A DNA stretch of 64,000 nt from Candidatus Micrarchaeia archaeon. GTDB taxonomy: Archaea > Micrarchaeota > Micrarchaeia > CABMEP01. The stretch lies in the NCBI GenBank assembly GCA_038880755.1, contig JAVZRC010000001.1:8791-72790 (forward strand). Direction: 5' to 3'. Shown here piece after piece: positions 9,279 through 56,914 of the stretch. The notes beneath the pieces are model-generated. The model ran no database searches, was not told the origin of the DNA, and saw only the letters and a list, made by a program, of their open reading frames with translations. How positions within the stretch are numbered: position 1 is the first letter of the stretch; each line of letters opens with the position of its first letter. A program made the position numbers and the translations under genes.

Positions 9279-9353
9279 GGGCCCGTAGCTCAGTTTGGCC
9301 AGAGCGTTCGGCTCTTAACCGAAAAGTCGTGGGTTCAAATCCCACCGGGCCCG
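9279..9353 (+). tRNA. tRNA-Lys (CUU)
   Basis: Cloverleaf: GGGCCCG acceptor, GCUC/GAGC D-stem, anticodon stem UUCGG/CCGAA with loop CUCUUAA, T-loop GGUUCAAAUCC. Confidence 0.85.
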
Positions 9354-9376
9354 CTTCTAAATTGAAGTTGAATTTT

Positions 9377-10303
9377 ATGAAGATTCTTGTGACAGGTGGA
9401 GCCGGATTTATAGGCTCAAATCTTGTTGATACTTTAATCAGAAAAAATCACGAAGTTATAGTTTTAGATAATCTCTCAACAGGAAAGATTGAAAATATAA
9501 ATGAAAAAGCGGTTTTTTATAATATCGATTTGAGAGACAGTTTAAAATTAAAGTCTCTTTTTGAAAAAGAAAGACCAGAGATAGTTTATCATTTAGCTGC
9601 ACAGATAAATGTAAGGAAGTCTATTAAAGATCCTTTTTATGATGAATCTGTAAACATAGCCGGTTCCTTGAATCTTTTGGAATGTTGCAAAGACTACGGT
9701 ATAAAGAGAATAATATACTCCTCATCTGGTGGGGCAGTTTATGGTGAGCCAAATAAACTACCAGCACCAGAAGAACACGAAATAAAACCACTCTCTCATT
9801 ATGGGGCATCAAAATTTGCAGTAGAGAGTTATCTTTCAGTTTATAATTCAATTTATGGGTTAGATTACATAACATTGAGATATGCAAACGTCTATGGTCC
9901 AAGGCAGGATTTTCTTGGCGAAGCAGGAGTTATCGCAATATTCATAAGAAATGCATTAATTGGAGAACCTTTAACAATATTCGGAGATGGAAACCAGACA
10001 AGGGATTTCATCTTTGTTAATGATGTAGTAAACGCAAACGTTCTTTCTCTAAATTACAGAGGAAATTTCAGAATATTCAATATAGGAACTGGAATTCCTA
10101 CCTCAATAAATCAAATAGCAAAAGAAATTGAAAAAACAATAGGAAAGAAGATCACGATAATAAGAGGAGAGGCAATAAAAGGAGAGGTCAGAGATACCTA
10201 TCTTGACATAAGTAGAGCTAAGAGAGAATTAGGTTTCTCACCTTTAGTCTCTATTTCAGAGGGAATAAGACTCACTTTTGAATGGGCAAAAAATGCGGTC
10301 TAA
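9377..10303 (+). CDS. NAD-dependent epimerase/dehydratase (UDP-glucose 4-epimerase GalE family)
   Basis: Rossmann GGAGFIGSNL, catalytic YGASKFAVE (YxxxK). Start trimmed to MKILVTGG because the ORF-track start overlaps tRNA-Lys. Confidence 0.8.
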   Translation: MKILVTGGAGFIGSNLVDTLIRKNHEVIVLDNLSTGKIENINEKAVFYNIDLRDSLKLKSLFEKERPEIVYHLAAQINVRKSIKDPFYDESVNIAGSLNLLECCKDYGIKRIIYSSSGGAVYGEPNKLPAPEEHEIKPLSHYGASKFAVESYLSVYNSIYGLDYITLRYANVYGPRQDFLGEAGVIAIFIRNALIGEPLTIFGDGNQTRDFIFVNDVVNANVLSLNYRGNFRIFNIGTGIPTSINQIAKEIEKTIGKKITIIRGEAIKGEVRDTYLDISRAKRELGFSPLVSISEGIRLTFEWAKNAV

Positions 10304-11967: not shown

Positions 11968-12885
11968 ATGATTAAAAATAAACACTATAAGATGTACACA
12001 GTGGGGCTAGATTGGATGGAAACCGATATTAAAGATATAAAAGAAGAGGCATTAAAAAGTCAAATCAAACTTGAGACAGAACTTCTTTATAATCCACTAG
12101 TTACTGATTATCTAAAAACTAATTTTGGTGAAAACTCAATAAAAGTAATTTCCGCTGCCATGGAAGAAATGACAGATGATGCAATCGCAGCAAGATGCAA
12201 GCTTAAAGTCGCAGAAGTAAGGGCAATACTAAATAAGCTTTACAACTATAAAATGGCAGAATATAAGCGAATAAAAGACAGAGATACCGGCTGGTTTTCA
12301 TACATATGGAAGATAGATGTATCTAATATTCTCAACATAATAAAAGAACAAACAATAAACAGAATAGAGGAGCTCGATAAAACAGTAGAAAAAATGAATA
12401 CAGAATTTGTATATTACTGTCCACAGTGTTCAAAAACAAATCTAATAAGTTTTGATCTTGCAGCTGATTTGATGTTTAGATGTCCAAATTGCGAAAATAA
12501 ACTCTTAGAGAAAGAAAGAGATTCAAAAGATAAGTATGAAAAAGAGCTTATTGAATTAAAGTCTAAACACATTTCTTTACTCGAAGATATAAGAAAGTTC
12601 GAAGAACGGAAACGCCAGGAAGAAATTAGAATAAAGGAGCTTCAGGAGAAGATGGCGGAGATGACAAAGATTGAAGAGGTATCTAGATCTAAAGCAAAGG
12701 CTAAAGGGTCAGTAAGTAAGGAGCTATCTAATAAGTCAAATAAGAAGTTAAACAAGAATTTAAACAAAAAGTCATCTATTAAAGTTAAACATCTAAAATC
12801 GAAGAAAGTACCAAAAGGCAAAAAAGTCAATATTAAAAAGAAATTAACCAAGCCTGCAAAACTGAAAGGTAAGAAAAAGAGATGA
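11968..12885 (+). CDS. tfe: transcription factor E (TFE-alpha / TFIIE-alpha homologue) with K-rich C-terminal extension
   Basis: Winged-helix N-terminus plus zinc ribbon YYCPQCSK…FRCPNCENKL. The start may be M9 (MYTVGL). Confidence 0.65.
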   Translation: MIKNKHYKMYTVGLDWMETDIKDIKEEALKSQIKLETELLYNPLVTDYLKTNFGENSIKVISAAMEEMTDDAIAARCKLKVAEVRAILNKLYNYKMAEYKRIKDRDTGWFSYIWKIDVSNILNIIKEQTINRIEELDKTVEKMNTEFVYYCPQCSKTNLISFDLAADLMFRCPNCENKLLEKERDSKDKYEKELIELKSKHISLLEDIRKFEERKRQEEIRIKELQEKMAEMTKIEEVSRSKAKAKGSVSKELSNKSNKKLNKNLNKKSSIKVKHLKSKKVPKGKKVNIKKKLTKPAKLKGKKKR

Positions 12886-21724: not shown

Positions 21725-22504
21725 TTATTCTTTTAACATTGAATGGATTCTTTCCAATTCTTCTATAGTTAATGTGAATACTCTTCTTTTTTGCATACTA
21801 AGTTTTTCAGCTACTGAAATTAATTTTGGATATTCTTCCATTATCTCCTTTGCCTTTGCAGCTGCACCTAGAGTTTTTTTCCTATGTGAAAAGAGTCGCT
21901 CTATGAATTTATCGAATTCAGGGTTATCAGTTTTTTCTCTTTTGAACAGCATAACAATTGCAGAATCAACTTCAGGTACTGGTTTAAAGCTTCCTTTAGG
22001 AACTTTCTTTAGATATATCGGCTTGAAGTAATAATTAGTCATCACACTTAATCTTGACCAATCCTTTTCACCAGGCTTTGCAATCATTCTGTCTACAAAT
22101 TCCTTCTGCAGGCAGAGAACAGCCTTTTCAAAATTAAATTCCTTAAGCTTGAAAAGAAGCGGAGAGGATATAGAATATGGAACATTGCTTATTATCAGAT
22201 CTATCCTCTTTTGCTTTGATTCTTTTAGAATCTCGTTTTCACTCAAATCTAAGAAGTCAGCTTCTATGACTGTAACATTCTTTTTTTTCTTGAATAAAAA
22301 TTTAAGGGACTCTGCAAAGCTGAAATCTTTTTCAATAATAACAAGATGCTTTGCATTCTCTGCAACCAATCTGCTAAGGTTTCCAGTACCTCCACCAATC
22401 TCAAGTACCACTTTTCCTTTAGGTTGTAGCATTTCTACTTCGTATTTCAGTATCTCTTCATTTTCCAGCATATGCTGGCCAAAGTGTTTTCTTTTATTGT
22501 ACAT
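21725..22504 (-). CDS. ksgA: 16S rRNA (adenine1518/1519-N6)-dimethyltransferase KsgA/Dim1
   Basis: SAM motif VLEIGGGTGNLS and the NVPYSISSPLLFKL motif. Confidence 0.85.
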   Translation of the reverse strand: MYNKRKHFGQHMLENEEILKYEVEMLQPKGKVVLEIGGGTGNLSRLVAENAKHLVIIEKDFSFAESLKFLFKKKKNVTVIEADFLDLSENEILKESKQKRIDLIISNVPYSISSPLLFKLKEFNFEKAVLCLQKEFVDRMIAKPGEKDWSRLSVMTNYYFKPIYLKKVPKGSFKPVPEVDSAIVMLFKREKTDNPEFDKFIERLFSHRKKTLGAAAKAKEIMEEYPKLISVAEKLSMQKRRVFTLTIEELERIHSMLKE

Positions 22505-23194: not shown

Positions 23195-23767
23195 TTAGTG
23201 TCTTCTAAAACCACTTGTTGGCGGCATTGGTGGCTTAATGAATAAATAATACCTTTCTTTGCCACTCATTTCATTTATTATTCTTTCAGCTATCATTTCT
23301 ACTGGATTAAGTAGATGTGGCACTCTTTTTGTAAGATCATCAAAACTTTCAAAAGGTTTAATTTCTCTCTCTTTGAGTATATCTTCCAGATGTTTCTTTC
23401 CAATACCTGGAAGAAGTTCAAGCTGATGGAGTCTTATTGTTACTGGTCCGCATTTATTTATGAAATTTATAAAATCGCTTTCTCTGCTTTTAACTATTGT
23501 TTTTATTGCAGTTTTCAGTTCATTTTTAGCAGCACCTGTAAGTTCAGAGTACTCAACCCTTCCTTTTATTCTCTCTACTTCCTTTCTTTGATTCAATTCT
23601 TTTCCTACGTATAGCTTACTATGGAGTTGAATTGGAACATTTCTTTTCACTATAACTTCCAGAAGTGTAAAGAACCTTTCACCAACTAAGTAAGCAACCG
23701 GTTCTCGTTTAATGTCCGTTGGTTTACCTAGTGGTAAATAGTCGATTACAATTCCATAGTCTTCCAT
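23195..23767 (-). CDS. DUF655-family nucleic-acid-binding protein (conserved archaeal rpoF-ksgA neighbour)
   Basis: Pattern DYGIVIDYLPLGK…AYLVGERFFTLLEV…LELLPGIGKKHLEDIL (HhH). Confidence 0.55.
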   Translation of the reverse strand: MEDYGIVIDYLPLGKPTDIKREPVAYLVGERFFTLLEVIVKRNVPIQLHSKLYVGKELNQRKEVERIKGRVEYSELTGAAKNELKTAIKTIVKSRESDFINFINKCGPVTIRLHQLELLPGIGKKHLEDILKEREIKPFESFDDLTKRVPHLLNPVEMIAERIINEMSGKERYYLFIKPPMPPTSGFRRH

Positions 23768-23780
23768 AAAAAATCACCAG

Positions 23781-24131
23781 CTATTGTTTCTGGTATTTTG
23801 AAACTATTTCTAATATCTTATTAATTTCGTCTTCTGTTAAAGAATAAGTTTCCTTTGAGAATATCTGCTCTATTTCTTCCTTCTTCTTCGGCATTAAATC
23901 TACGATCTTAACCGTCTTTGCTCTGTTTAGTTTTGTAACTTCACTCATTAATTCATTTATCATTTCTTCTGCCTTTTCTTTGCTTAATTTGGTCATTTTT
24001 TTTGCATATTCTAAAGTCTTTGCCTGTTCGAATCCCATTTCTATTTCACTAGGCATTTCTAGTATCTCTTTTACTTCAGCAAGCGTTACTTCTTTAATAT
24101 CAAGGATTTTTTTACCTATCATTCCAATCAC
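23781..24131 (-). CDS. rpoF: RNA polymerase subunit F (Rpo4/RpoF, Rpb4 homologue)
   Basis: About 115 aa helical protein MIGKKILD.KEVTLAEVKEILE in the conserved L21e-RpoF-DUF655-KsgA cluster. Confidence 0.55.
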   Translation of the reverse strand: MIGMIGKKILDIKEVTLAEVKEILEMPSEIEMGFEQAKTLEYAKKMTKLSKEKAEEMINELMSEVTKLNRAKTVKIVDLMPKKKEEIEQIFSKETYSLTEDEINKILEIVSKYQKQ

Positions 24132-24141
24132 TTTTTACATA

Positions 24142-24426
24142 TCAATATTCTCTGAGGTGGACAGCTGAGACTATAAATTTCTTTTTCACTCCTCCATCCT
24201 CTACTTCTACAATGTAAGCGTTTCCTTGTTTTCCTTTGACTATACCAACACGACCAGCATATCTTGGATGAGGAAAGTCTTCGAACTTAACATTTGGAAC
24301 TAATTGTACCTTTTTTCCTATCTCGATAGTTTTCAATTGATCAACTACTGTAACTTTTCTTTTAGTTGATTTTCTTCCGAGCAATCTGCTTTTTCTGCTC
24401 ATTCTTCCTTTAGATGCTTTAACCAT
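24142..24426 (-). CDS. ribosomal protein L21e
   Basis: Pattern SKGRMSRKSRLLGRK…FDIGDKVQL.-like…GRVGIVKGKQGNAYIVEV. Confidence 0.8.
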   Translation of the reverse strand: MVKASKGRMSRKSRLLGRKSTKRKVTVVDQLKTIEIGKKVQLVPNVKFEDFPHPRYAGRVGIVKGKQGNAYIVEVEDGGVKKKFIVSAVHLREY

Positions 24427-24574
24427 ATTATCACTTCTATTAACTTAAAAATTGCTACAATTAACTCTACCAAAACAAAAGGGGCGAATTAATAGATATA
24501 ATATAGTAGGATAAGTTTAAAAATGTGCTATATCTCAAAAATTATGATTTATTTGATTATTATTACTTTTTAAA

Positions 24575-24600
24575 TAGGTTTAAATACCTTCCGAGGTATA
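24575..24600 (+). promoter_or_regulatory. candidate BRE/TATA promoter element upstream of the TBP-like gene
   Basis: 'aaataggtttaaatacc' is TATA-like with purine-rich upstream flank, 60-80 nt before the ATG. The genome is AT-rich, so specificity is low. Confidence 0.15.
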
Positions 24601-24657
24601 TATTTTTAAAGCATTTAAAAATGTTAAGCCCTATTTGGGTTCTAAAGGGTGTTTTTA

Positions 24658-24936
24658 ATGGTGAAAGATGTTAAATTTAAGATTGAAAATATTGTAGCAT
24701 CTGCAAATTTAGGAATAGAATTAGATCTTTATTCTCTCGGAAGGAAAGTTCCAAATATCGAATACGAGCCCGAACAATTTCCAGGAGCAATTCTTAAACT
24801 TAGAGAACCAAAATCATCATTGCTTCTCTTTAAGAATGGAAAGATAATTTGTACTGGTTGTAAAACAGAAAAGGAAGTAAAATTAGCAATCAGAAATGCA
24901 ATGGCAATTCTTCAAAAAGCACAGAAGAAGAGATAA
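24658..24936 (+). CDS. single-repeat TATA-binding-protein-like protein (half-TBP)
   Basis: One complete TBP repeat: IENIVASANLGIELDLYSLGRKVPNIEYEPEQFPGAILKLREPKSSLLLFKNGKIICTGCKTEKEVKLAI. The ORF stops after about 93 aa and no second repeat lies downstream in frame. Confidence 0.5.
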   Translation: MVKDVKFKIENIVASANLGIELDLYSLGRKVPNIEYEPEQFPGAILKLREPKSSLLLFKNGKIICTGCKTEKEVKLAIRNAMAILQKAQKKR

Positions 24937-24996
24937 TCATATTCTTTTCTAAATTTTTATTTATCTTCAACATACTTTTTTCTTTATCAATTTTAA

Positions 24997-25929: not shown

Positions 25930-28900
25930 TTATTTATTTTTGACTCCAATCTCAGTAACTTTGCCTTTTGATACTCCACTATAAAAAGCTTCAATCCACT
26001 CTCTTTTTTCTTCTTCCATGTTCTTCTCATATTCTTTTTTGCCGGAATAAATGTAGATTATAGTTCCAGTTCCAAAAATCTTATTTTCGTTGAGTTTTTT
26101 CTTTAATACTTCTGGCTTAATTCCATCTTCACTAAAGTGTTTATATTCAATTTCGTCTATTAAACTTACGAATGGGTTATATCTGTTAGTTTGTATGTGT
26201 TTCTTTATCTCTTCTTCTGTTCTCTCTTTACCTGCTGCTATATTTGTATTCACATTATTAAGATGATTTAGGAGTTCATTGTACTTAGTTCTTTCTTCAT
26301 GCGAATGTACTTCTTTAGATTTATAGGAAGTTTCTAGCTTTCGTATTTCTTCGTGAATCTGGTTACTTAATGAATCTAATTTCCCAACTGTTGTAAATGT
26401 TTGATTATTGTCTTTGGGAATGTAGATTTCAGAATTGTATTTTTCGAAATCTTCTTTTACTTTACTTAAACCTTCCCGTAACTTGATTTCACTTTCATTT
26501 AATGTATATGGTGGTGATAAGAGTTGAAGTGCTTTATTTAGCTCTTTTTGTGCTTCATCAAGCTTGTAACGAGTGTATCCATTTCCGGAATTTATACTAC
26601 TGGTGGTTTCTGCAGCAGATTTTATTTCTGCAGCCTCAAATGTTTTTTTCATTATCATTGCGGAATCTACAGTTAAAGAACTTACAGGAGATAATGAAGG
26701 AGCATTTTTAGCAACTTCATATATCTCTTTCATTAATATCAGATTATCTCTTTCTTTTCTAATGAATTCTGTTCCTTTTATTACTCTTTCTAATTCAATT
26801 TTTGCAGACTCAATCTGGTTTTCTTTAGATTTAACTTCGTCATAACCTGGGGTACCAATTGTTGGATTTCTATATTTTATATAGAGTTCCTCTAGTTCTT
26901 TTTGAAGGTTTTTTATTTTGTTATTTATTATTTCTTCACCCTTTAAAACAGTAAATAATACTGTTTCTGGTGTAACATCTGTTTTCTCTCCATTAACTAT
27001 CTTTACGGCTCTTTCTAATCCTTTTGAGTTAAGTTTCTTTTCAAGATCTAATGTATCTATTATGTTTTTAGTGAGTTTCTCTTTATTCTCTGGCAATTCA
27101 TAATTCATATTAGAAAATGCAATTATTTTTTCATTTGGATTCGTTATCTTTCTTCCTTTTTCATCAGTCAACTCTAATTGGTCTAAAAATCTATGGATAG
27201 TTCCTATCTGTATGTCTTTTATAATATAATTAAATGCAGCTATTTTATTAGAATCGTCTTTAATTAATTCTAGGTTTTCTTTTAGAACAGTATTAATCTT
27301 ACTTGGATCACCACTTTCATATGCTTCATAAATTCGTTGAACATTAATCCCATAAGCATCAGCCAATTCTTTCACGTCTCTCAATTTGGACTTAAATTCA
27401 TCAACTCCATAGTTACTATAGTAGTCTTTCGCATTCATTTTTCTTGCTATTATCAAAGATTCTTTGTCAAAACCTATTAATGCTCCATTGCTACTAATTC
27501 TATTAAGTAGTCTTTCAGTATCTTCTCTAAGAATCCTTTCTAAGTTTCTTATTAATTTATTTGTATCTTCTACACTTAAATCAGATTTTTGTTTTATAAG
27601 TCTAGATTTTTGTTCATCACTTAGGTAAACAGATTTTAGTTGTTCATTGATTCTTTGAATTCTACCATCTAGATACGTTCTAATATCTTGTAATTCTGTA
27701 GGTTTTGCTCCTTTCTTTAACCCCTCTATTACATTTCTTAACATTTCTAAATTTGCAACTTCATCTTTAGCGATCGCATTCAATATTTTCATCTTTCCCT
27801 TCTCAGTCAATCCATACACATCTATATCTTCTTTTTGTAAACTAAAACCATATGTTGCTTTCACTTTATTATTTATCTCTTCTTGTTCTTCTTTGGTATA
27901 CATCTCTTTTGATGGTCTTCTGATCTCAGGTATTGAAGCATAAGATAAACTCCAAGGTCTTACACCCATTCTACCTAATGAGAGAAAGAACGTTTGTCTG
28001 AATAAATCTAATAATGATGAACTTGATACTTTATCTGATGCAGTAACAACTCTTATTTCACCAAAAACTCCTTTAACAACTCTTCTATTTCCACCCAATA
28101 CATCTTCCATTTCTTGTGTAGTTAGTTTTCCTTTTGCAGCTTGTTCCGCTTTCTTCAATTTTTCTAATTCTTCTTTATTCAATCTTCTGGAAGTAGTACT
28201 CATTAATACTTTTCCAGGTATAGAGGATATCTTTTGCACTATTCCAAAGGTTCCTTTTGCCTTTTTTTCTTCTTCAATTGAGGGAGTGAGGAACTTTCCA
28301 AGTTTGTATGCACCGGTTGAAGTAGCAGATTTTAATGCACTCTGGGCTGCACCTACAGCAGTACCTAATAATGTAGTTCTTTGCCTTGTAGTGACTCTAC
28401 CTCCAGAGATTCCTGGTGCTTTAAATGCAACTCTTGAAAAGTCAAATAAACCAAACGGATTCTTTCCAGATGCAAACATCGCAGCAACAAGAAGTGCAAA
28501 TATTATGAAAAGAGGAGCACAAGCAGTCAAACTTATTAACGGAAATACTCCAGGTACATATCTTTCTGTTTTCGCACTTCCCATAAATGGTTCTTTCGGT
28601 TTCGGTGTAAATGTAGCGGTTATTGAATATGAGATCTTTCTAGGATCTGTCGAATTTTCTAATAAGGGTGGTTGAGTGTATAGTGTAAAAGAAACACTCC
28701 CGTTTTCATTTGTATTTACTACAAAAGGTGCTGATTCATCTGAAAGGACAAACTCACCTGCTGCATTTTTTGTTACAAATTTACTTCCTATTACTAATTC
28801 TATAGTTATATTTTTGTTTGCAAGAGGTATTCTATTTTGTGTTTTCCTATCAATTGCATTAAGCTGTATATTGACATCAATTGTATTATCAGTTATACCT

Positions 28901-29046
28901 ACAGGTATATTTATTGGATGCCTTGAATGCTGAATTATAATTTCAGTTGGATTTTTATCTACAGGACAGATATTAACTGTGAAAACTAGAGGGATTGCAA
29001 AGAGGACAAGTATGATAATTAATCCAGTTACTTTCATTTGTATCAA
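25930..29046 (-). CDS. large (1038 aa) bitopic coiled-coil protein, signal peptide plus internal TM
   Basis: Signal peptide LIIILVLFAIPLVFTV, about 150-aa N-terminal domain, TM LISLTACAPLFIIFALLVAAMF, then about 850 aa of heptad-rich coiled coil. Confidence 0.6.
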   Translation of the reverse strand: MIQMKVTGLIIILVLFAIPLVFTVNICPVDKNPTEIIIQHSRHPINIPVGITDNTIDVNIQLNAIDRKTQNRIPLANKNITIELVIGSKFVTKNAAGEFVLSDESAPFVVNTNENGSVSFTLYTQPPLLENSTDPRKISYSITATFTPKPKEPFMGSAKTERYVPGVFPLISLTACAPLFIIFALLVAAMFASGKNPFGLFDFSRVAFKAPGISGGRVTTRQRTTLLGTAVGAAQSALKSATSTGAYKLGKFLTPSIEEEKKAKGTFGIVQKISSIPGKVLMSTTSRRLNKEELEKLKKAEQAAKGKLTTQEMEDVLGGNRRVVKGVFGEIRVVTASDKVSSSSLLDLFRQTFFLSLGRMGVRPWSLSYASIPEIRRPSKEMYTKEEQEEINNKVKATYGFSLQKEDIDVYGLTEKGKMKILNAIAKDEVANLEMLRNVIEGLKKGAKPTELQDIRTYLDGRIQRINEQLKSVYLSDEQKSRLIKQKSDLSVEDTNKLIRNLERILREDTERLLNRISSNGALIGFDKESLIIARKMNAKDYYSNYGVDEFKSKLRDVKELADAYGINVQRIYEAYESGDPSKINTVLKENLELIKDDSNKIAAFNYIIKDIQIGTIHRFLDQLELTDEKGRKITNPNEKIIAFSNMNYELPENKEKLTKNIIDTLDLEKKLNSKGLERAVKIVNGEKTDVTPETVLFTVLKGEEIINNKIKNLQKELEELYIKYRNPTIGTPGYDEVKSKENQIESAKIELERVIKGTEFIRKERDNLILMKEIYEVAKNAPSLSPVSSLTVDSAMIMKKTFEAAEIKSAAETTSSINSGNGYTRYKLDEAQKELNKALQLLSPPYTLNESEIKLREGLSKVKEDFEKYNSEIYIPKDNNQTFTTVGKLDSLSNQIHEEIRKLETSYKSKEVHSHEERTKYNELLNHLNNVNTNIAAGKERTEEEIKKHIQTNRYNPFVSLIDEIEYKHFSEDGIKPEVLKKKLNENKIFGTGTIIYIYSGKKEYEKNMEEEKREWIEAFYSGVSKGKVTEIGVKNK

Positions 29047-37250: not shown

Positions 37251-40200
37251 ATGAATAAATCTGAAATGAAGAAAGAAAGTAAAATCAAGTCTTCATCTTT
37301 TTCAAATATGATGGTTTTTCTGATCATCTTTTCTTTGATATTTATTCTTGTCTCTGGTTGTATTGAATTAAAGCCAAGAGAAGGGATAAGTACTACAGTT
37401 CCAATTACGGTAACGAAAGGAAGCGATGTATGTGCCGGTTATAATGAATCCACATGCGGCGCTTTCTTGAAGGAAAAGAGAACTGCAATTTCTGATTATA
37501 TTTGTAAAGGACCAATCGGCCCTTCTTATTCAAAGGTGGACGAAGTAACTTATTCTCTTTCAGCTGAAAAAGGTTGGAGTTGTGAGGAAACAAAAACATA
37601 TCTAGTTTTAGCAGGAAATAACTATACAATGTCAGGTTCAGGCCATATGGGGAATCCACATGGTGGTAGCATAACATTACAAGATTCAAGAAATGTAGTA
37701 TCACCAATATCTTATGGAATGAATAATCTAACTTTGAAATGTGATGTAGGCGTATTTGTTAGTGTTTCAAAAGGTAAATATCAGGGGGGTTCATTTACCT
37801 TGAGATTTGATGGTTCATCTGACATCTTATCTCCAGGAGACCGTTTTGACGGACAATACTCATTTTTCGTACTACCATTAACTTTAACTCCAGAAAATAA
37901 CAAATTAATTGGTAATCTTAGTTTTTCAGGTACGTGGGTAGTTACCGGAAAAGAATACGGTAGTTGGCCAAACAAAAAACACAAATCAAGCATGGATGTT
38001 TCTTACTCTATTTCTTGTACTCCCTTTGCAAGCTACAATGTTAATTGGAGATGTAAAAATGCATATACCTCAGAATCATATGATTTTGTAAATTGCAGCT
38101 ATGATGAATTTTCTACATTCCAGGGTGGAAGGACATTCCTTGATAACAATACTCCATTCAGCAAGCTTAGCAACTATATTCAATCATATTATGGAACTTA
38201 CTCGTACAATCCAATTACTGAAGAAACAAAGCCAGCTGGAAAAATTCAAGTTCCATTCTTTATGTTAGGCCAAGGTCCATCCTTCCAGGATTATGAAGAG
38301 GCAAAGAAACTATGTGTACCATGGAAAGAAACCGTAGTGAACATCTCACTTGGAAATACGACATTTGATCCTCCATTTATGACAATCCTCTCAGGTTTAG
38401 AGCTCTGTATCGATAATAAAGACAATAAGAGACATGATATAACGATAATCAATCTTCAGGATCAAAGTATAGTAAGACAATACATTCTTCAGCCAACGCA
38501 ATCTGCATGTTATATACCATACGAAGGCTTTTATCACATAAAAGATTCAAATGGAGACTATGCTTATTTATCAGTACTAAGCGCAAAAGATACTACTCAG
38601 ATTTATATAGGAAATAACATAGTTCCGAATTATACAGTGGTTAATGCAGATGGATTTGTTAATTTTAGCCTAATTGAAAGAAAAGAGCATAACTTGAGTA
38701 TGACAAGTGTGAATAGATTTGATGATTATAGCTATGATAATAATTTTACTCTCAATCTTTCAAATCCGGTTGAAACAATAAGAGCGCCACAAACAGGAGA
38801 GTATAGGATTAATGATATCACAACAGATAAAACTGGTTATTTATTCGTTCAGTCTCCGCTTCAGAGATTCTTGTTTAAGAGAGATGGAACAATTGATCCA
38901 GGATATGAAATATACAGACCGCTTGGAGATTTGATTTGTTTTAGAAGCGAAACTGAAGGTTTAAGCATTTCAATTTCAAGATACACAGAAACTGAAAATG
39001 GATATGAATGGATATGGCTGACTAATGAAACATTGTCTACAAATTCATATTGCTGTATTCAAGGTGCGTTACCTGGCAAGTATCAAGGAATTACCTCAGA
39101 TGGAAGAGTTGCAAATTGGACGATAGGAAATGGAAAGCCTTCCGCAACAGTTTCTATTCAGCCGATTGGTTTTGAACCTGAAGAAGTAGAAAGTCCGCCA
39201 GGAACAAAGATATGTTGGATTAATCCATCAGCAATCTCAAGAAATGTTATAACAAAATCATCATCAGGAAAGACATTCTTCTCAGGCCAAATTCCACCAT
39301 TCTCAGATAATGTTTGTTGGCCAACTATGAACAAGACAGATTCATATGTAACTACATTTGTACCTAATTTAGATGTGAGGAACATTGTGAATATTAAAGA
39401 GGTTGATTCAAGAAACATCCAAATACTCTCAGGTGGCGCAGGCTTTGATACTATCTCATTAGTTGTAAAGCCTGGCTCTCAAATATGTTGGATTAATAAT
39501 GATAATAAGAATCATACATTAAAAGATGAGAGTGGAAACTACATACTCTTAGCTCCATCGCAAACAAACTGTATAGATAAGTCTACTATGCAGGAAGGAA
39601 ATATTTATACGCGCCAGCTGGATGGAAAGGAGATTTATTCAGATGTTGGAGTTATAGATGGTAAAGGTGCAATCCTGTCTTCAAGAGGTCCTATTCCATT
39701 TTCACTATTTGTAAATCCACCAAATGTTAATATGACTCAATCAGGAGAATTGTATATCACCTCTCCTTCGTATTTCAAGATTATAAATAAACAGAGTGTT
39801 CCATCTGAGTTGTATGAGATTTCCTATATTACTTTATTAGCTAATTCAACTGGATTGGCAGATATAGTGAAAACCGAAAGTGAAACTATTATAATTAATT
39901 CTCCGGTTAAGAGCTATACAAAGCTATTGCTTTATGTGGAAAATACTGATGATAAAAACCACACTATAAGAGTGGAATCAAACGGAGATGAAATCAATAT
40001 TCTACCTAATTCATTTTATTTATTTGAAATTAGTCAAAGTACAGTATTAACTGATTTAACTGTTAAAGAAAATTTGACTAGAAGTGGAACTACAAATCAA
40101 ACTATAATAGATGCATTGTCACAGATCCCAATAAAGATATTGGGTCCTCCAGAGATAAAATTAAGTAAATCAGGTTCTAATGGAGATTCATTAACATTGT

Positions 40201-43200
40201 CTGCTCCTATTGAACCTTATACTTCAATACTTTATGAAAATAATACAAACAAGACAATTGTAATCACTTTTGCAGATACAAAGGAATTCATACTAGAGAA
40301 CCCATTGAACAATCAAACATTAGACCTTCCAACTCAGGTTATTCATGGAGATTTATCCTCTCAAATTCTTTATGATATGAGAAAGTATGCGGATGAGGGA
40401 GCAATGTCATTGCTTATTCCTTCATTCCATAATGTAACAGTAAAGATACATTCCTCTGTTTTCTCTCCATCTGAAGCATTAATACCTGCAGGAAGCACAA
40501 TTACATTTACTAATAAGGATGTAATAGACCATACAATTGATTTAATTAAAAATGAAAGCGATATCATCTCTTCAAGATCGTTTACCCTTCTACCATTACA
40601 ATCAAATTCAACTTCAGATACACCAAAGAATACAACATTCACGTTCTATGATCAGCTTTCCAATATGAAAGGAAACATTACAACAGTTGCTTATGATGCA
40701 AATATTGGAATAATATCAACACCGATTTATCCAGAATCTGGAATGGTTGCAGTTGGTGGACCTGTTAAATTCAATAACTATGATCCTGATTCAGATTATA
40801 AGATTGAGATTAAACTTACAGATGAACTAAACGCTGATTACACATATATCTTAAATCTTCCTAAATATACAAATGGGATTCCAGGAGTTGCAACATGGAT
40901 TCCAGATAAGGCTGGAAATGCCACTTATATAGTTAGAAATAATACAATTGTTGTTGGCACTGGTGAAATAGTTGTCAAGAATTCAATAATTAATATTTCT
41001 ATTAGAAATGGGGAGTTTGAAACAAAATCAATTGCGGTTGATCATGATAGCAAGGTGTGCTTTAATCCAGACTCACCAAGAAACATCTCAATTACTAATT
41101 TAGATACCGGTGAAAAGATAGCTGAAAGAACTATCTATCCATTAGGTGTTCAAGCAACAGATTCAGGTAGTGTTTGTAAAAGAATTTATAACTGTTCTGT
41201 AAAGCAACAGACTGGAGATTATGGATGCATAGGAATAGTGAATGAATCAGATCCTTCTACATATTGTTCTTATTATTTAATTAATCCATCAATAGCATGT
41301 AAATTAGATAATAATATTTCATGTGTTGTTAAAGACCAGTATTCAAATGATTTAGAGTGTACAACTGACTATTCAAAAGATACGCAACCCGCAGTGCCAG
41401 GCATTCAACCACAGTGTTTATTCCAAGCAAGATTAGATGGTGGTGCATGCAACGGTGGTTCAGTAATAAAGAATTCTTCCTTAGCTTCAATAATTAATTG
41501 CTCAGTTTCAACTACAGGTCTTCTCCAGTTTAACTATTTTTCAGGTAAGGAAAAGACAGATGTATCAAATTTATTATGTAACGTCCAAAAATCAGGTAAT
41601 ATTATAACATGTAGCCCAACAGGTTTATATCCAGATATAGGTTGTATTAATAATTCAATCAATGATCTATATTGCTATTATACACCTTCACCATTAACAT
41701 CCGCAGAAAAGTCTAATCCGTATACATTAACTGATAATCGTTTCTGTGCAGTAACAACTGCTCAAAGAACTGAAAGATATTATACAACATATGCATGTGA
41801 TATAGGGTACGATGGTAAGTGTACATGTCCAACTAATAAAATGTGTGGTGCCTTGCCATGTGATGGAAGCAATGTTCTTGCAAGTATGTATTATGATCGT
41901 TATCAAAGCAGTTCTATGTTTGGAAGGAAAAGTTATAATTGTTCGAATGGAAAGTTAGTTAATGTTCTCTTGAAAGAAGGGACATATACATTTAATTTCT
42001 CAGGATTAGATAATCCATATTTTTCAATATATCTTAAACCTAATTTTGGATTTAAGGCATGCAAATGCTATGCTGCCAACCAAAGGACAGTCACATACGC
42101 TAATTCGTGTAGTGTTAAAACTGGGGGAAGTTCAATCACTCCATTTCCAAGCAATTGTACTTTACAGTCTGAGAAATGTGTGTTCTCTTCTCCATCAGTA
42201 TTTTTATGCAGCAATGAAGAAAACTGTCCATGTAAATTCGGATGCGGAAAGAAGATCAACTATTCAACACTAGGAAACATAAATTGTGTTTCAACCCCAG
42301 GGGGTTGTAATGTAATATCAAATTATAATGCTGATAATGGTGATTACTGTAAATATGCGTATGCTCAAACATGCACACCTAAACAAGGATATGAAGATAA
42401 AGTATCATGCAAACTTGATGGAATATCATGTTTGATATCAGAAGGAAAGAAAATAAAAGACGACGGTTCGTATTGCAGTTTGAATTTATTTTCATGTGAA
42501 CCAGCTTACTCGGGCGTTGATTGCAGTTTTGATGCATCAACACAATCATGTAAGGTTGGTTCTATCGAGCAATTCTGTTTCACACCAGCTTCAACTTATG
42601 TTGTTGAGGATGTAGATACTGGAAATATTATGATAGTTGAAGGTTATGACAGATATACGCCATTAGAGATAGATATTCAAAAATCTGTGTTCACTCCTTC
42701 CTTTGTTGCATCATCTCCACTGAGCGAAGTATGTTTCCAAAGCCTCGATGGAAAAATGCACAGAGTTTCAGTTCCAGAGGCAGTAAAGAGTGATGGTTTT
42801 ATTGATGTTTATTCAGATAGGCAAACATGTCTTAATTTCCCATACAATACAGAGCCATGGACTGTAAGGTTGCAGGACAAGCCAGATGTTGCAGCAGGCA
42901 TTAAATCAATAAAGCAGGATATTGAAGTAGTTGTCAAGTCACAGATGTTTGATCCTTCTGATCTGGTTCTCAGACCTAATACATCTATTACATTTATTAA
43001 TACAGATGCAGAATCACATCAACTTAACAAAGCAATACCATCTACAAATTTTGTTAAACTTATTTTACAAAATAGCATTTTAACAAGCGATTCATTCTTT
43101 TACAATATATTAAAAACAGAGTGGATAGATACAATCGAATGTAAGAATGATTCAGACTGTCCAGAAGGTTCATTCTGCGATGTAGAAAAAAGATGCCACG

Positions 43201-45626
43201 CTATTAAATTCTGCATACGAGATGATGAGTGTCCATCTCCATCAATTTGCCATAACTATAAATGTATTCTTACAAAACAGTGTCAAACTGATTTAGAATG
43301 TGGAGTTAATAGTAAATGTATTGATGATGGAACTGGAATCAAGAAATGTATTGCATTAGATATTCAATGTTCAAATTCATTCGATTGCTACTCTTCAGAT
43401 CCAAATTCGATTTGTATTAACAACAAATGCACACGTTTAGTAAATTGTACTAATTCCTCAGATTGTCCATCTGGCTTTGTCTGTTCATCTCAGTCATGCA
43501 CCATGATTGAAAGTTGTACAAATAATAGCGAGTGCCCACTGAATTCAGTATGTCATCAAGGTAAATGTGCTACGCCAATAGTCAATAATTGTAGCTTAGA
43601 CAGTGATTGCCCGATTGGAATGTACTGTACTATTGTAGATGAAACAGAAGATGGCGAAAAAATAAGGGCATGTATTTCAAGCCCATGCATTTCAAATTCG
43701 GATTGCAGCGAAGAGAGCAATACAGCATGCATGACCAACTTCATTACCGATGAAAATAATTGTACGCTTTATAATCCATCTTATGCAGAACTGTTGTGTA
43801 CAAGCGATGTAGACTGTCTTGAGGGCGGTTGTCTCAATGGAAGATGTGTTATTTCAAAGAATTGTTCACGAGATTTTGATTGTGGCGTGATAAATGGTAT
43901 TCAATCAGTATGTGAATCTTCTGTTTGTAAGATCCCAGTTAAATGTTCTGTTTTAGCAGATTGTAGATCTGGAGAAATATGTCAGGATGGATTCTGCAGA
44001 ATACTCCGTGATAAGATTTGCACTACAGATTCAGAATGTAATGCTGATGAAATTTGTCAAGAAATGAAGTGTATAAAGAAGCAGAATTGTTCTTCCACTA
44101 TCAGTTGTAATTCACTGCAAAGCGGTGCAGCATGCACAAATGCTTCTTCATCTTACCCTGCATTCTGTCAATCATCTACAAATTGTACAAGCGATGCATA
44201 CTGCGGATCGAACCAGTATTGTGATTTAGGAATCAAGCAGTGTATTACCTATCCAAAGACAACTTGTGATTCGCCACTATATGGATCAGATGTTAGTCAG
44301 GTTAATGTTTCATTCAAGCTTCCGTCATCTACCTATAAAGCATATTTGATTTATTCTTTCAATGATAATGGGAATATATTCTTAAATGGACAAACTTTAT
44401 TACCAACAACTAAATTTAGATGCCAGTATTCGACTGGGTCTGGTGTTAATTATATTGATAACTATTCTCAAACTCAGCAATGGAAGATACCTTTAGGTTT
44501 GCTTAAGTTAGGGAATGAAGAAAATAATATGTCAATTACAACATGCAGTTGTTCTGGTCAAAAAGGATTCAACATTTCAATACTTTATTATTATGTTTCT
44601 CCAGAAGGAATCAAACAAGAGTCAATTATAATAGATCCAAATTCAAAAATTCAGATCTTTTCACCTCAACAATCTGAAGAACTAATATATATTGATAACA
44701 AGACAAAGAACGTGCTTCCAATCTCTGTGAAGTCCATAATAAATTCAACAGGAGGTATAGACTGTTCAGCAGACCTCTCTTCAATGGCTCTGGCAGTTGC
44801 AAGCTATGAGAGATTAGATTATGCAACTCAGGCTTGTGACTCAGGAAAGCAGATTGAATGTGCTTCATATAATCCATATGGTCCCGCTACGGTTACATTC
44901 TTTGCCTCAGAATCTGGATTGAATCTTTCAAATGAATCTGAAAGACTGTGTGCATTCCAGCAGCTTGCATCTGTCAAGAATATATGTCCAAATTGTACAA
45001 CTGTTCTAAATGTCGGGGATGTAAATATCACACAGCTCAAGGATATTTTAAATTCAGCAAATTCAACCCAAATACTTGGCAAAAATGCAATTGAATTTGT
45101 AGATGTAATAGGTTATGACGAATTCCTTAACAATTATCCATCCTGTAGCTTCGAGGACATAATGAATTCAATAGTAAACAAATCAAAACTTGGTTTATAC
45201 AATTACACAAAACCATCAATAATAATGAGGTTTGGATTAAAGGATGGTGCATCTAATACAAATTCAGCATGCAACTGGACAGATGAATCTATTGTAACAG
45301 CATATCAAGATTTCTATGGAATATGGATTCCAATTCTTGCAGGTTCAGGCGTGCTTGGAACAGCCCAATACTGCTTGACAGACCCATGCCCGTCATTTGA
45401 TTTCTATGGTCTTCTTACCTCAGGAAAGACAAACAAGCCATGGACAGATGTATGGTTCAGGGAAGGATGCGGAAGATATTATTACGCAGCTGAAGGGTTA
45501 TCATTTACAACATTCTCAATGAAGGAAACAAACTATTCAATGTGCGATCCATCAAAGATGCTTGCCCTGCTTCAGACTGCTCAATGTGCAGTAGGCAAAT
45601 ATACATTAAAATCAGGAGCAAGTTAA
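37251..45626 (+). CDS. giant (2791 aa) cysteine-rich surface protein, putative lipoprotein, with about 15 tandem EGF-like CxxDSDCPxGxxC modules
   Basis: An uninterrupted 8.4-kb ORF. N-terminal TM ending in the lipobox-like LVSGC. Tandem Cys modules at nt 43138-44270 (e.g. ECKNDSDCPEGSFCDVEKRC). No C-terminal TM. Confidence 0.7.
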   Translation: MNKSEMKKESKIKSSSFSNMMVFLIIFSLIFILVSGCIELKPREGISTTVPITVTKGSDVCAGYNESTCGAFLKEKRTAISDYICKGPIGPSYSKVDEVTYSLSAEKGWSCEETKTYLVLAGNNYTMSGSGHMGNPHGGSITLQDSRNVVSPISYGMNNLTLKCDVGVFVSVSKGKYQGGSFTLRFDGSSDILSPGDRFDGQYSFFVLPLTLTPENNKLIGNLSFSGTWVVTGKEYGSWPNKKHKSSMDVSYSISCTPFASYNVNWRCKNAYTSESYDFVNCSYDEFSTFQGGRTFLDNNTPFSKLSNYIQSYYGTYSYNPITEETKPAGKIQVPFFMLGQGPSFQDYEEAKKLCVPWKETVVNISLGNTTFDPPFMTILSGLELCIDNKDNKRHDITIINLQDQSIVRQYILQPTQSACYIPYEGFYHIKDSNGDYAYLSVLSAKDTTQIYIGNNIVPNYTVVNADGFVNFSLIERKEHNLSMTSVNRFDDYSYDNNFTLNLSNPVETIRAPQTGEYRINDITTDKTGYLFVQSPLQRFLFKRDGTIDPGYEIYRPLGDLICFRSETEGLSISISRYTETENGYEWIWLTNETLSTNSYCCIQGALPGKYQGITSDGRVANWTIGNGKPSATVSIQPIGFEPEEVESPPGTKICWINPSAISRNVITKSSSGKTFFSGQIPPFSDNVCWPTMNKTDSYVTTFVPNLDVRNIVNIKEVDSRNIQILSGGAGFDTISLVVKPGSQICWINNDNKNHTLKDESGNYILLAPSQTNCIDKSTMQEGNIYTRQLDGKEIYSDVGVIDGKGAILSSRGPIPFSLFVNPPNVNMTQSGELYITSPSYFKIINKQSVPSELYEISYITLLANSTGLADIVKTESETIIINSPVKSYTKLLLYVENTDDKNHTIRVESNGDEINILPNSFYLFEISQSTVLTDLTVKENLTRSGTTNQTIIDALSQIPIKILGPPEIKLSKSGSNGDSLTLSAPIEPYTSILYENNTNKTIVITFADTKEFILENPLNNQTLDLPTQVIHGDLSSQILYDMRKYADEGAMSLLIPSFHNVTVKIHSSVFSPSEALIPAGSTITFTNKDVIDHTIDLIKNESDIISSRSFTLLPLQSNSTSDTPKNTTFTFYDQLSNMKGNITTVAYDANIGIISTPIYPESGMVAVGGPVKFNNYDPDSDYKIEIKLTDELNADYTYILNLPKYTNGIPGVATWIPDKAGNATYIVRNNTIVVGTGEIVVKNSIINISIRNGEFETKSIAVDHDSKVCFNPDSPRNISITNLDTGEKIAERTIYPLGVQATDSGSVCKRIYNCSVKQQTGDYGCIGIVNESDPSTYCSYYLINPSIACKLDNNISCVVKDQYSNDLECTTDYSKDTQPAVPGIQPQCLFQARLDGGACNGGSVIKNSSLASIINCSVSTTGLLQFNYFSGKEKTDVSNLLCNVQKSGNIITCSPTGLYPDIGCINNSINDLYCYYTPSPLTSAEKSNPYTLTDNRFCAVTTAQRTERYYTTYACDIGYDGKCTCPTNKMCGALPCDGSNVLASMYYDRYQSSSMFGRKSYNCSNGKLVNVLLKEGTYTFNFSGLDNPYFSIYLKPNFGFKACKCYAANQRTVTYANSCSVKTGGSSITPFPSNCTLQSEKCVFSSPSVFLCSNEENCPCKFGCGKKINYSTLGNINCVSTPGGCNVISNYNADNGDYCKYAYAQTCTPKQGYEDKVSCKLDGISCLISEGKKIKDDGSYCSLNLFSCEPAYSGVDCSFDASTQSCKVGSIEQFCFTPASTYVVEDVDTGNIMIVEGYDRYTPLEIDIQKSVFTPSFVASSPLSEVCFQSLDGKMHRVSVPEAVKSDGFIDVYSDRQTCLNFPYNTEPWTVRLQDKPDVAAGIKSIKQDIEVVVKSQMFDPSDLVLRPNTSITFINTDAESHQLNKAIPSTNFVKLILQNSILTSDSFFYNILKTEWIDTIECKNDSDCPEGSFCDVEKRCHAIKFCIRDDECPSPSICHNYKCILTKQCQTDLECGVNSKCIDDGTGIKKCIALDIQCSNSFDCYSSDPNSICINNKCTRLVNCTNSSDCPSGFVCSSQSCTMIESCTNNSECPLNSVCHQGKCATPIVNNCSLDSDCPIGMYCTIVDETEDGEKIRACISSPCISNSDCSEESNTACMTNFITDENNCTLYNPSYAELLCTSDVDCLEGGCLNGRCVISKNCSRDFDCGVINGIQSVCESSVCKIPVKCSVLADCRSGEICQDGFCRILRDKICTTDSECNADEICQEMKCIKKQNCSSTISCNSLQSGAACTNASSSYPAFCQSSTNCTSDAYCGSNQYCDLGIKQCITYPKTTCDSPLYGSDVSQVNVSFKLPSSTYKAYLIYSFNDNGNIFLNGQTLLPTTKFRCQYSTGSGVNYIDNYSQTQQWKIPLGLLKLGNEENNMSITTCSCSGQKGFNISILYYYVSPEGIKQESIIIDPNSKIQIFSPQQSEELIYIDNKTKNVLPISVKSIINSTGGIDCSADLSSMALAVASYERLDYATQACDSGKQIECASYNPYGPATVTFFASESGLNLSNESERLCAFQQLASVKNICPNCTTVLNVGDVNITQLKDILNSANSTQILGKNAIEFVDVIGYDEFLNNYPSCSFEDIMNSIVNKSKLGLYNYTKPSIIMRFGLKDGASNTNSACNWTDESIVTAYQDFYGIWIPILAGSGVLGTAQYCLTDPCPSFDFYGLLTSGKTNKPWTDVWFREGCGRYYYAAEGLSFTTFSMKETNYSMCDPSKMLALLQTAQCAVGKYTLKSGAS

Positions 45627-56739: not shown

Positions 56740-56840
56740 ACAATCACAAATATATTTGAAAATGAAAAATTAAAAATAGACATGTCTCCTTTTATACACA
56801 GTCTAATCTTGATTAATGTGTCAGTAAAAGAAAAACAAAG

Positions 56841-56914
56841 TGCGGCGGCCGGGATTTGAACCCGGGTTGCAGCCTTGGCAAGGCCGCGTCCTAACCAGAC
56901 TAGACTACCGCCGC
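56841..56914 (-). tRNA. tRNA-Gly (GCC)
   Basis: Reverse complement reads GCGGCGG-UA-GUCU…, anticodon stem CGGCC/GGCUG with loop UUGCCAA, T-arm CCGGGUUCAAAUCCCGG, acceptor CCGCCGC-A. Confidence 0.85.

What the first reader, a model, noticed from the sequence alone, without database searches (positions are those of the whole stretch)
24658..24936. Single-repeat TBP-like protein (half of a TATA-binding protein)
The 93-aa product is one complete TBP repeat with the canonical …NIVAS.NLG..LDL………EYEPE.FPG…K……LLLF.NGKI.CTG… pattern. The ORF ends after one repeat, and no second repeat follows in frame or nearby. Canonical archaeal TBP is a two-repeat pseudo-dimer. A one-repeat protein would have to homodimerise (an ancestral-like state), or is a paralogue with another role in addition to a full TBP elsewhere.
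Basis: seen in the sequence. Interest (0 to 1): 0.55.

Follow-up and report, generated by a model that had tools for sequence, protein, structure and literature searches.

The report
One-repeat (half-size) TATA-binding protein
This small archaeon (Micrarchaeota) encodes, at the chromosomal spot where its relatives keep their normal two-repeat TATA-binding protein, a strongly conserved half-size version that probably has to pair with itself to work, so nature offers a test of the old idea that this transcription factor began as a homodimer.

Summary
Window 24658-24936 (+) encodes a 92-aa protein that is exactly one TBP repeat (Pfam PF00352, 103.8 bits). It is 40-46% identical to solved TBPs, and its predicted fold overlays them at 0.8-1.0 Å. 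No second repeat follows in any frame, in the 64-kb window, or in 183 kb of related DNA.

It is not an artefact. At least 105 protein clusters have the same one-repeat architecture, almost all from Micrarchaeota. dN/dS is about 0.02, and 36 core residues are invariant, including both DNA-kinking Phe and the EYEPEQFPG stirrup.

The gene sits divergently next to rpl21e-rpoF-DUF655-ksgA. Two-repeat tbp genes of Iainarchaeota and other Micrarchaeota occupy the same position, so it is the positional orthologue of tbp.

The repeat is N-repeat-like, which points to loss of the C-terminal repeat rather than a surviving ancestral state. Close relatives carry young two-repeat versions (73% identity between repeats).

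Best explanation: a homodimeric, perfectly symmetric TBP, with promoter polarity set by TFB-BRE. Two things are not shown: that it dimerises, and that the genome has no other TBP. I found no published report of this.

The parts
24658..24936 (+). CDS of the 92-aa one-repeat TBP. Predicted topology is S1-H1-S2-S3-S4-S5-H2, followed by a short basic tail (KAQKKR).
   Evidence: PF00352 at 103.8 bits; AF2 monomer pLDDT 89.9; Foldseek TM (query-normalised) 0.81-0.84 and rmsd 0.8-1.0 Å to solved TBPs.
24647..24651 (+). GGGTG, a Shine-Dalgarno-like element 6 nt upstream of the ATG (inferred).
   Evidence: Read from the sequence. GG is invariant across four orthologous upstream regions.
24579..24587 (+). 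TTTAAATAC, a candidate TATA box for the tbp gene. It is invariant in four orthologous upstream regions. Its function is inferred.
   Evidence: invariant columns 153-161. TTTAAATA occurs 7 times in 7.5 kb of intergenic DNA and 0 times in 56 kb of coding DNA.
24515..24524 (-). GTTTAAAAAT (reads ATTTTTAAAC on the minus strand), a conserved candidate TATA element for the divergent rpl21e-rpoF-DUF655 operon (inferred).
   Evidence: invariant columns 89-98.
24937..24996 (.). 60-nt T-rich spacer shared with the convergent downstream gene. It is a likely oligo-T termination zone and leaves no room for a second repeat.
24142..24426 (-). Ribosomal protein L21e. It is the first gene of the divergent operon and serves as a synteny anchor.
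   Evidence: PF01157.
23781..24131 (-). RNA polymerase subunit Rpo4/RpoF (Rpb4 family), a synteny anchor.
   Evidence: PF03874.
23195..23767 (-). DUF655/HhH protein, a synteny anchor.
   Evidence: PF04919, 202.8 bits.
21725..22504 (-). KsgA/Dim1 rRNA adenine dimethylase, a synteny anchor.
   Evidence: PF00398.

Best explanation
The gene encodes this organism's general TATA-binding protein in a half-size form.

Shown:
- The product is one complete TBP-proper repeat.
- It is under strong purifying selection.
- It occupies the chromosomal position of tbp.

Inferred:
- Two identical chains pair through the interface that joins the N and C repeats of ordinary TBP. This would give a perfectly two-fold-symmetric saddle.
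- Each chain contributes a Phe pair (F41, F58) to kink the TATA box.
- Each chain also contributes an acidic stirrup (E35-Y-E-P-E-Q-F-P-G43) able to bind TFB.
- The two stirrups are identical, so TBP itself cannot give the promoter a direction. Polarity must come entirely from the TFB-BRE contact, which is already the rule in archaea.

In evolutionary terms it most likely arose by loss of the C-terminal repeat from a two-repeat DPANN TBP. In some relatives it was later re-duplicated in tandem.
For: - Identity as TBP proper: PF00352 at 103.8 bits. It is 40-46% identical to solved TBPs and aligns about equally well to both of their repeats. The AF2 model (pLDDT 89.9) superposes on TBPs at 0.8-1.0 Å.
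- Functional residues: 36 core positions are invariant across 32 family members that go down to 60% identity. They include N11, V13, F41, F58, T66 and the EYEPEQFPG stirrup. Mapping these to DNA and TFB contacts rests on established knowledge of TBP structures.
- Selection: dN/dS is 0.02 against L001 and L002, with dS 0.45-0.52.
- Breadth: 105 of the top 120 database hits are one-domain proteins of 135 aa or less, mostly from Micrarchaeota. Open frames in eight GTDB species genomes are 102-127 aa with one repeat.
- Positional orthology: ksgA<-DUF655<-rpoF<-rpl21e | ->TBP is shared by one-repeat loci and by two-repeat loci of Iainarchaeota and other Micrarchaeota.
- Rosetta-stone argument: L081 (two repeats) and L082 (one repeat) are collinear. 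The second repeat of L081 is closest to the one-repeat family, and repeat-repeat identity is 73% in P0001, P0008 and P0022, against 38-44% in ordinary TBPs.
- No other TBP repeat in 183 kb of one-repeat genomes. Among the 120 best two-repeat Micrarchaeota/Iainarchaeota TBPs, none shares a locus-tag prefix or contig length with carriers of the one-repeat gene.
- Polarity set by TFB-BRE is established archaeal biology (PMC7289017, read).
Against: - Dimerisation is not demonstrated. The only dimer proxy I could run, a head-to-tail tandem folded without an alignment, gave pLDDT 40 and is uninformative.
- Only 64 kb of this genome, plus about 20 kb from each relative, could be inspected. A canonical tbp, or a divergent partner half, elsewhere in the genome is therefore not excluded.
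- Cross-checks by locus tag and contig length cover only the top 120 hits of each search.
- Monopartite TBP-domain proteins that coexist with a full TBP are known in Halobacteria and Thermococcales (PMC3597702).
- Support for the repeat phylogeny is weak for some nodes: 29% for the one-repeat clade and 61% for the DPANN clade.
Confidence: 0.65

Rival explanations
1. It is an accessory one-repeat paralogue, for example a regulator or competitor of TBP, TFB or TATA sites. On this reading it coexists with a canonical two-repeat TBP encoded elsewhere in the genome, as halobacterial TbpA and the Thermococcales monopartite proteins do.
For: Monopartite TBP-domain proteins beside a full TBP are documented (PMC3597702). 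Only part of the genome was visible. Two-repeat TBPs do occur in other Micrarchaeota.
Against: The gene sits at the tbp locus itself, and relatives carry their two-repeat tbp there. It is far more conserved than the Thermococcales proteins and retains every DNA and TFB contact residue. No second TBP repeat was found in 183 kb. There is no shared locus-tag prefix or contig length between one-repeat and two-repeat lists. Reduced DPANN genomes rarely keep paralogues of basal factors (general knowledge).
Confidence: 0.18
2. It is one half of a split TBP. A second, divergent (C-like) half would be encoded elsewhere, and the two halves would form a heterodimer.
For: Split genes are common in DPANN (general knowledge). 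L005 carries two one-repeat genes 1.2 kb apart.
Against: All 105 one-repeat proteins retrieved are N-like, and none is C-like. The two L005 copies are near-identical duplicates rather than N and C partners. No partner was found in 183 kb.
Confidence: 0.08
3. It is a truncated pseudogene, or an assembly or sequencing artefact in which a frameshift hides the second repeat.
For: None beyond the unusual length. NCBI annotation calls several members 'hypothetical protein' because they score below the full-length TBP cutoffs.
Against: The identical protein occurs on 8 contigs, and the architecture recurs in more than 100 clusters from independent assemblies. dN/dS is 0.02. No relic of a repeat appears in any frame. 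The downstream space is occupied by other genes.
Confidence: 0.02

Closest known systems
Canonical archaeal TBP (two-repeat; e.g. Pyrococcus woesei 1PCZ/1AIS, Methanocaldococcus jannaschii 2Z8U, Sulfolobus acidocaldarius 1MP9)
   Same: It has the same Pfam repeat and 42-46% sequence identity. The predicted repeat fold is near-identical (rmsd 0.8-1.6 Å). It keeps the Phe pair and the EYEPEQFPG stirrup. In DPANN relatives the tbp gene has the same genomic neighbourhood.
   Different: It has one repeat instead of two in a single chain, at 92 aa against about 180-190 aa. It falls below every NCBIfam TBP cutoff (91 bits against 181-347). It ends in a short basic tail.
Halobacterial TbpA-type monopartite TBP (Brindefalk et al. 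2013, PMC3597702)
   Same: It is a one-repeat protein that still looks like TBP proper.
   Different: TbpA is described as very similar to full-length TBPs of the same species and as non-essential, so it is an extra copy. The protein here is conserved across a broad Micrarchaeota clade at the tbp locus, and no full-length copy was seen.
Thermococcales monopartite TBP-domain proteins (e.g. P. furiosus NP_578195; PMC3597702)
   Same: They are stand-alone proteins of about 90-97 aa with a single TBP-domain fold.
   Different: Those are only distantly related to TBP, form a separate sequence cluster, and coexist with a normal TBP. The protein here is a near-consensus TBP repeat.
RNase HIII N-terminal and DNA-glycosylase TBP-like domains
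   Same: They belong to the same fold superfamily.
   Different: There is no sequence match, and Foldseek gives E of 0.29 or worse (ranks 46-50). No catalytic domain is attached.

Membership tests
TBP proper (Pfam PF00352; archaeal/eukaryotic TATA-binding protein) | TBP repeat sequence and fold (S1-H1-S2-S3-S4-S5-H2) | tested here: met
   103.8 bits, profile 1-84 of 85; predicted secondary-structure order matches; TMq 0.81-0.84 to TBPs.
TBP proper (Pfam PF00352; archaeal/eukaryotic TATA-binding protein) | Two tandem repeats in one polypeptide forming the pseudo-symmetric saddle | tested here: not met
   One repeat only. NCBIfam full-length TBP cutoffs are not reached.
TBP proper (Pfam PF00352; archaeal/eukaryotic TATA-binding protein) | DNA-kinking Phe pair and conserved DNA-contact residues on the concave sheet | tested here: met
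   N11, V13, F41, F58 and T66 align to the corresponding residues of solved TBPs and are invariant in the family. The assignment of these residues as contacts rests on established TBP structures.
TBP proper (Pfam PF00352; archaeal/eukaryotic TATA-binding protein) | Acidic stirrup loop that binds TFB/TFIIB | tested here: met
   EYEPEQFPG is invariant and identical to the stirrup motif in 2Z8U and 1AIS. Binding itself was not tested.
TBP proper (Pfam PF00352; archaeal/eukaryotic TATA-binding protein) | Orthology with tbp (same locus as tbp in related genomes) | tested here: met
   The ksgA-DUF655-rpoF-rpl21e | tbp arrangement is shared with two-repeat loci.
TBP proper (Pfam PF00352; archaeal/eukaryotic TATA-binding protein) | Binds and bends TATA DNA and nucleates TFB/RNAP recruitment | not testable with these tools
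   This needs EMSA, in vitro transcription or structural work.
Accessory monopartite TBP-domain proteins (Halobacteria TbpA; Thermococcales group, PMC3597702) | Coexists with a full-length TBP in the same genome | tested here: inconclusive
   None was found in 183 kb or by locus-tag and contig-length cross-checks. Complete genomes could not be scanned.
Accessory monopartite TBP-domain proteins (Halobacteria TbpA; Thermococcales group, PMC3597702) | Thermococcales type: only distantly related to TBP repeats | tested here: not met
   It is 40-46% identical to canonical TBPs over about 80 aa, against the weak local similarities tabulated in PMC3597702. No direct alignment to those proteins was made.
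RNase HIII N-terminal TBP-like domain | Best sequence or structure match to RNase HIII, fused to an RNase H domain | tested here: not met
   One search has no RNase HIII hit. In one search RNase HIII ranks 46th at E=0.29. The ORF has no further domain.

The most novel reading that the evidence does not exclude
A large Micrarchaeota clade may have no two-repeat TBP at all and may run all transcription with a perfectly symmetric homodimeric TBP. In addition, the one-repeat and two-repeat states may have interconverted repeatedly in DPANN, through loss of the C repeat, tandem re-duplication and gene conversion. If so, the founding duplication of TBP is being replayed in living lineages. It could then be tested directly for dimer stability, TATA orientation and TFB choice.
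Probability: 0.5. Interest if true: 0.8.

Novelty: new variant of a known kind. Interest (0 to 1): 0.62.

Why it matters
TBP is the textbook case of a pseudo-symmetric protein thought to have arisen from a homodimer by duplication and fusion. No natural homodimeric TBP serving as a cell's basal factor has been characterised, to my knowledge and in the literature I could search.

A conserved one-repeat protein sitting at the tbp locus across a whole clade would be such a case. It would allow direct tests of three questions:
- whether symmetry in TBP is tolerated;
- how promoter direction is set when TBP carries no asymmetry;
- what the fused form gains.

It also has a practical consequence. Genome annotation (PGAP) labels these proteins 'hypothetical', and full-length TBP models miss them. 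Comparative surveys may therefore wrongly score TBP as absent or present in DPANN.

Tried and rejected
1. Homodimer modelling. The concatenated window protein folded without an alignment gave pLDDT 40 and pTM 0.30, which is uninformative.
2. Whole-genome test for a second TBP. The tools give at most 10 kb either side of a hit, and the genome scan matched only a few exact peptide patterns. I could only do indirect checks.
3. Representative-library search. It was dominated by two-repeat TBPs, which score double, so it was of little use for finding more one-repeat proteins or C-like ones.
4. Literature searches for a one-repeat, half or homodimeric TBP in Micrarchaeota or DPANN. They returned only Brindefalk 2013, which covers Halobacteria and Thermococcales, not this family.
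5. Frameshift or relic of a second repeat: rejected.
6. RNase HIII or glycosylase TBP-like domain: rejected.
7. 'Ancestral single repeat': not favoured, given the N-like signature and the two-repeat outgroups. It is not strictly excluded, because DPANN N and C repeats cluster together in the NJ tree.

Full report
**1. The observation**

The ORF at 24658-24936 (+) exists as described. It runs from an ATG to a TAA and encodes 92 aa.
- An upstream in-frame GTG at 24649 is unlikely to be the start. Homologues begin at the ATG position, and a GGGTG element lies 6 nt upstream of it.
- The product matches Pfam TBP (PF00352) over profile positions 1-84 of 85, with E=4.2e-30 and 103.8 bits against a cutoff of 22.9.
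- NCBIfam full-length TBP models hit it at about 60-91 bits, well below their cutoffs of 181-347. The matches fall on either the first or the second half of those models.
- Against PDB sequences the only significant hits are TBPs, and the protein aligns about equally well to both repeats of the archaeal ones (2Z8U, 1MP9, 1AIS/1PCZ).

**2. Nothing follows the repeat**

- tblastn of the repeat against the 64-kb window finds only itself, and all frames on either side are full of stops.
- A convergent gene ends at 24997, leaving a 60-nt T-rich spacer.
- A permissive six-frame search used three repeat profiles over 183 kb: the window plus ten one-repeat loci from relatives. It found only the one-repeat genes themselves.

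**3. Structure**

- AlphaFold2, run with a 32-sequence family alignment, gives pLDDT 89.9 and the S1-H1-S2-S3-S4-S5-H2 order of a TBP repeat.
- In Foldseek against the PDB, the first 44 hits are all TBPs, with query-normalised TM 0.76-0.84. The close hits have rmsd 0.8-1.0 Å over about 80 residues.
- RNase HIII and OGG1-type glycosylases appear only at E of 0.29 or worse.

**4. It is a family, not an accident**

- The identical protein is in NCBI as a 'hypothetical protein' of a Candidatus Micrarchaeia MAG and was seen on 8 contigs.
- 105 of the 120 best database clusters are one-domain proteins of 135 aa or less. Where they are named, almost all come from Micrarchaeota, including Ca. Burarchaeum.
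- In GTDB species genomes, eight Micrarchaeota loci (L001-L008) have open frames of 102-127 aa with a single repeat. One short 'Diapherotrites' contig (L039) does too.
- Across 32 members that go down to 60% identity, 36 core positions are invariant. These are E10 N11 I12 V13 S15 A16 L22 D23 L24 Y25, the whole E35-Y-E-P-E-Q-F-P-G-A-I45 stretch, K47, P51, and S54-L-L-L-F-K-N-G-K62, I64 C65 T66 G67.
- By alignment to solved TBPs and established structural knowledge, these positions include the two DNA-kinking phenylalanines (F41, F58), sheet residues that contact DNA (N11, V13, T66), and the acidic stirrup used by TFB/TFIIB.
- dN/dS against the two closest orthologues is 0.02, at dS 0.45-0.52.
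- A pseudogene or a sequencing artefact is therefore excluded.

**5. Genomic context**

- Upstream and divergent lie rpl21e, rpoF (Rpb4 family), a DUF655/HhH protein, a Yip1-like membrane protein and ksgA.
- The ksgA<-DUF655<-rpoF<-rpl21e | ->TBP arrangement is conserved in one-repeat loci (L001-L003, L006-L008, L082).
- The same arrangement holds in two-repeat loci of Iainarchaeota (L009-L038) and of other Micrarchaeota (L040-L047, L081).
- The one-repeat gene is therefore the positional orthologue of tbp. This is the main reason to read it as the lineage's basal factor rather than a side paralogue.
- The upstream region contains a TTTAAATAC element (24579-24587) that is invariant in four orthologous regions.
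- TTTAAATA occurs 7 times in 7.5 kb of intergenic DNA and never in 56 kb of coding DNA. This fits ordinary archaeal TATA-type promoters in this organism.

**6. Derived or ancestral?**

I trained N-repeat and C-repeat profiles on 36 non-DPANN archaeal TBPs.
- They separate held-out TBP repeats well: N repeats average +11.0 bits (95% positive), and C repeats average -8.8 bits (12% positive).
- The one-repeat family scores +11.7 (105 of 105 positive), and the window protein scores +7.3. It is an N-type repeat.
- A marker tree built from the neighbouring DUF655 and KsgA proteins puts two-repeat Iainarchaeota outside Micrarchaeota. It groups most one-repeat loci in one Micrarchaeota clade.
- The simplest history is loss of the C-terminal repeat, for which a stop after helix 2 would suffice.

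The picture is not clean, however.
- In a neighbour-joining tree of individual repeats (84 columns), N, C and single repeats of Micrarchaeota and Iainarchaeota cluster together (61% bootstrap). They do not join the N and C clades of other archaea.
- Iainarchaeota N and C repeats are sister groups at 96% bootstrap.
- Identity between the two repeats of one protein is 52% in Iainarchaeota and 48% in two-repeat Micrarchaeota, against 38-44% in other TBPs.
- Either the repeats evolve in concert in these lineages, or two-repeat forms were regenerated from a single repeat.

**7. Direct evidence for recent switching between one and two repeats**

- L082 (one repeat, 96 aa, with the next gene starting 2 nt after the stop) and L081 (two repeats) are collinear over ten or more genes.
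- Their first repeats are 86% identical at the DNA level.
- The second repeat of L081 ends at the contig end. Its last 69 nt are identical to the first repeat, which suggests a gene-conversion tract or the cause of the assembly break.
- The unique part of that second repeat is closest to the one-repeat family: 59% mean and 75% maximum identity, against 40% to the C repeats of two-repeat Micrarchaeota. It is also N-like.
- Three such proteins (P0001, P0008, P0022) have 73% repeat-repeat identity.
- A tandem fusion of the single repeat that yields a normal-looking TBP argues, in Rosetta-stone fashion, that the single repeat works as a TBP-like dimer.

**8. Mechanism**

- Shown: one TBP repeat, conserved contact residues, purifying selection, and the tbp locus.
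- Inferred: a homodimer forms a symmetric saddle with two Phe pairs and two identical TFB-competent stirrups.
- A symmetric TBP cannot orient the complex, so direction must come from the TFB-BRE contact. That is already how archaeal pre-initiation complexes are oriented (review PMC7289017, which cites Bell et al. 1999). Archaeal biology therefore tolerates such a protein in principle.

**9. What remains open**

- I could not scan a whole genome of a carrier.
- Indirect checks found no second TBP. There was none in 183 kb. Among the 120 best two-repeat Micrarchaeota/Iainarchaeota TBPs, none shares an NCBI locus-tag prefix or contig length with carriers of the one-repeat gene. Those carriers include contigs of 1.08 Mb, 692 kb and 359 kb.
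- These checks have limited power. Dimerisation is untested, and my only proxy failed.

**10. Comparison with what is known**

- Brindefalk et al. 2013 (PMC3597702) describe monopartite TBP-domain proteins in Halobacteria. These TbpA proteins are close copies of the host's TBP and are non-essential.
- The same paper describes a second group in Thermococcales, which is only distantly related to TBP. Both groups sit beside a full-length TBP.
- The present family differs. It is a near-consensus TBP repeat, it is conserved across a clade, and it sits at the tbp locus.
- Eight literature searches and look-ups found no description of it. A 2021 DPANN survey simply scores TBP as conserved.
- I therefore rate it a new variant of a known kind. 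Interest is moderate to high, and it depends on the whole-genome check.

Noticed in passing
L081:6001-6450 versus L082:6001-6291: Two collinear loci from close relatives (Anstonellaceae-like) differ at tbp. L082 has a 96-aa one-repeat gene and L081 has a two-repeat gene. The L081 contig ends inside repeat 2, and its last 69 nt are identical to repeat 1. This may be a gene-conversion tract or the cause of the assembly break.
   Followed up: partly
L005:5157-5465 and L005:6426-6740: Two near-identical one-repeat TBP genes lie 1.2 kb apart on one Micrarchaeota contig. This is a roughly 370-bp local duplication. Whether it is real or an assembly effect is unknown.
   Followed up: partly
L009-L038 (Iainarchaeota tbp loci): The N and C repeats of Iainarchaeota TBPs are each other's closest relatives (96% NJ bootstrap) and are 52% identical within a protein, against 38-44% elsewhere. 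The C repeats lack the usual C-repeat signature (+1.4 bits). This suggests concerted evolution or an independent duplication.
   Followed up: partly
window 24997-48130: A block of about 23 kb contains ORFs with no Pfam match. It includes a 1038-aa coiled-coil-like protein (25930-29046) and a 2791-aa giant ORF (37251-45626) with only sub-threshold cupredoxin-like stretches. The first two ORFs are only 32-64% identical to their counterparts in L001 and L002, while most flanking housekeeping genes are about 82-99% identical. This looks like a hypervariable, possibly surface or host-interaction, island right next to tbp.
   Followed up: partly
window 54272-56230 (-): A full-length bacterial-type long RelA/SpoT homologue (HD_4 + RelA_SpoT + TGS + ACT, 652 aa). 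This is unusual for an archaeon and may reflect horizontal acquisition.
   Followed up: no
window 11968-12885 (+): A TFE-alpha homologue (PF02002 plus a Zn ribbon) of 305 aa. That is about 125 aa longer at the C terminus than typical archaeal TFE-alpha proteins.
   Followed up: no
P0111, P0083, P0094, P0107 (family members): Some one-repeat TBPs carry long Lys/Ala/Pro-rich basic C-terminal tails (for example ...KAKPAKVKHAKKAKKVKKTAKPAKKAKKKKRR), and others have basic N-terminal tails. These may add non-specific DNA affinity.
   Followed up: no
P0007, P0009, L017: Archaeal TBP genes sit on contigs labelled Brevinematia bacterium, Omnitrophica bacterium and Chloroflexota bacterium. These are almost certainly mis-binned contigs in public MAGs.
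   Followed up: no
window 9279-9354 (+): A tRNA-Lys(CTT) overlaps the 5' end of the mechanically called ORF 9329-10303 (an NAD-dependent epimerase). The real start of that gene must therefore lie further downstream. tRNA-Gly(GCC) at 56840-56914 and tRNA-Phe(GAA) at 58356-58428 are also present.
   Followed up: no
window, all intergenic regions: TTTAAATA occurs 7 times in 7.5 kb of intergenic DNA and 0 times in 56 kb of coding DNA. TTTAAA is 5-fold enriched in intergenic DNA. This fits canonical, partly palindromic archaeal TATA boxes.
   Followed up: partly
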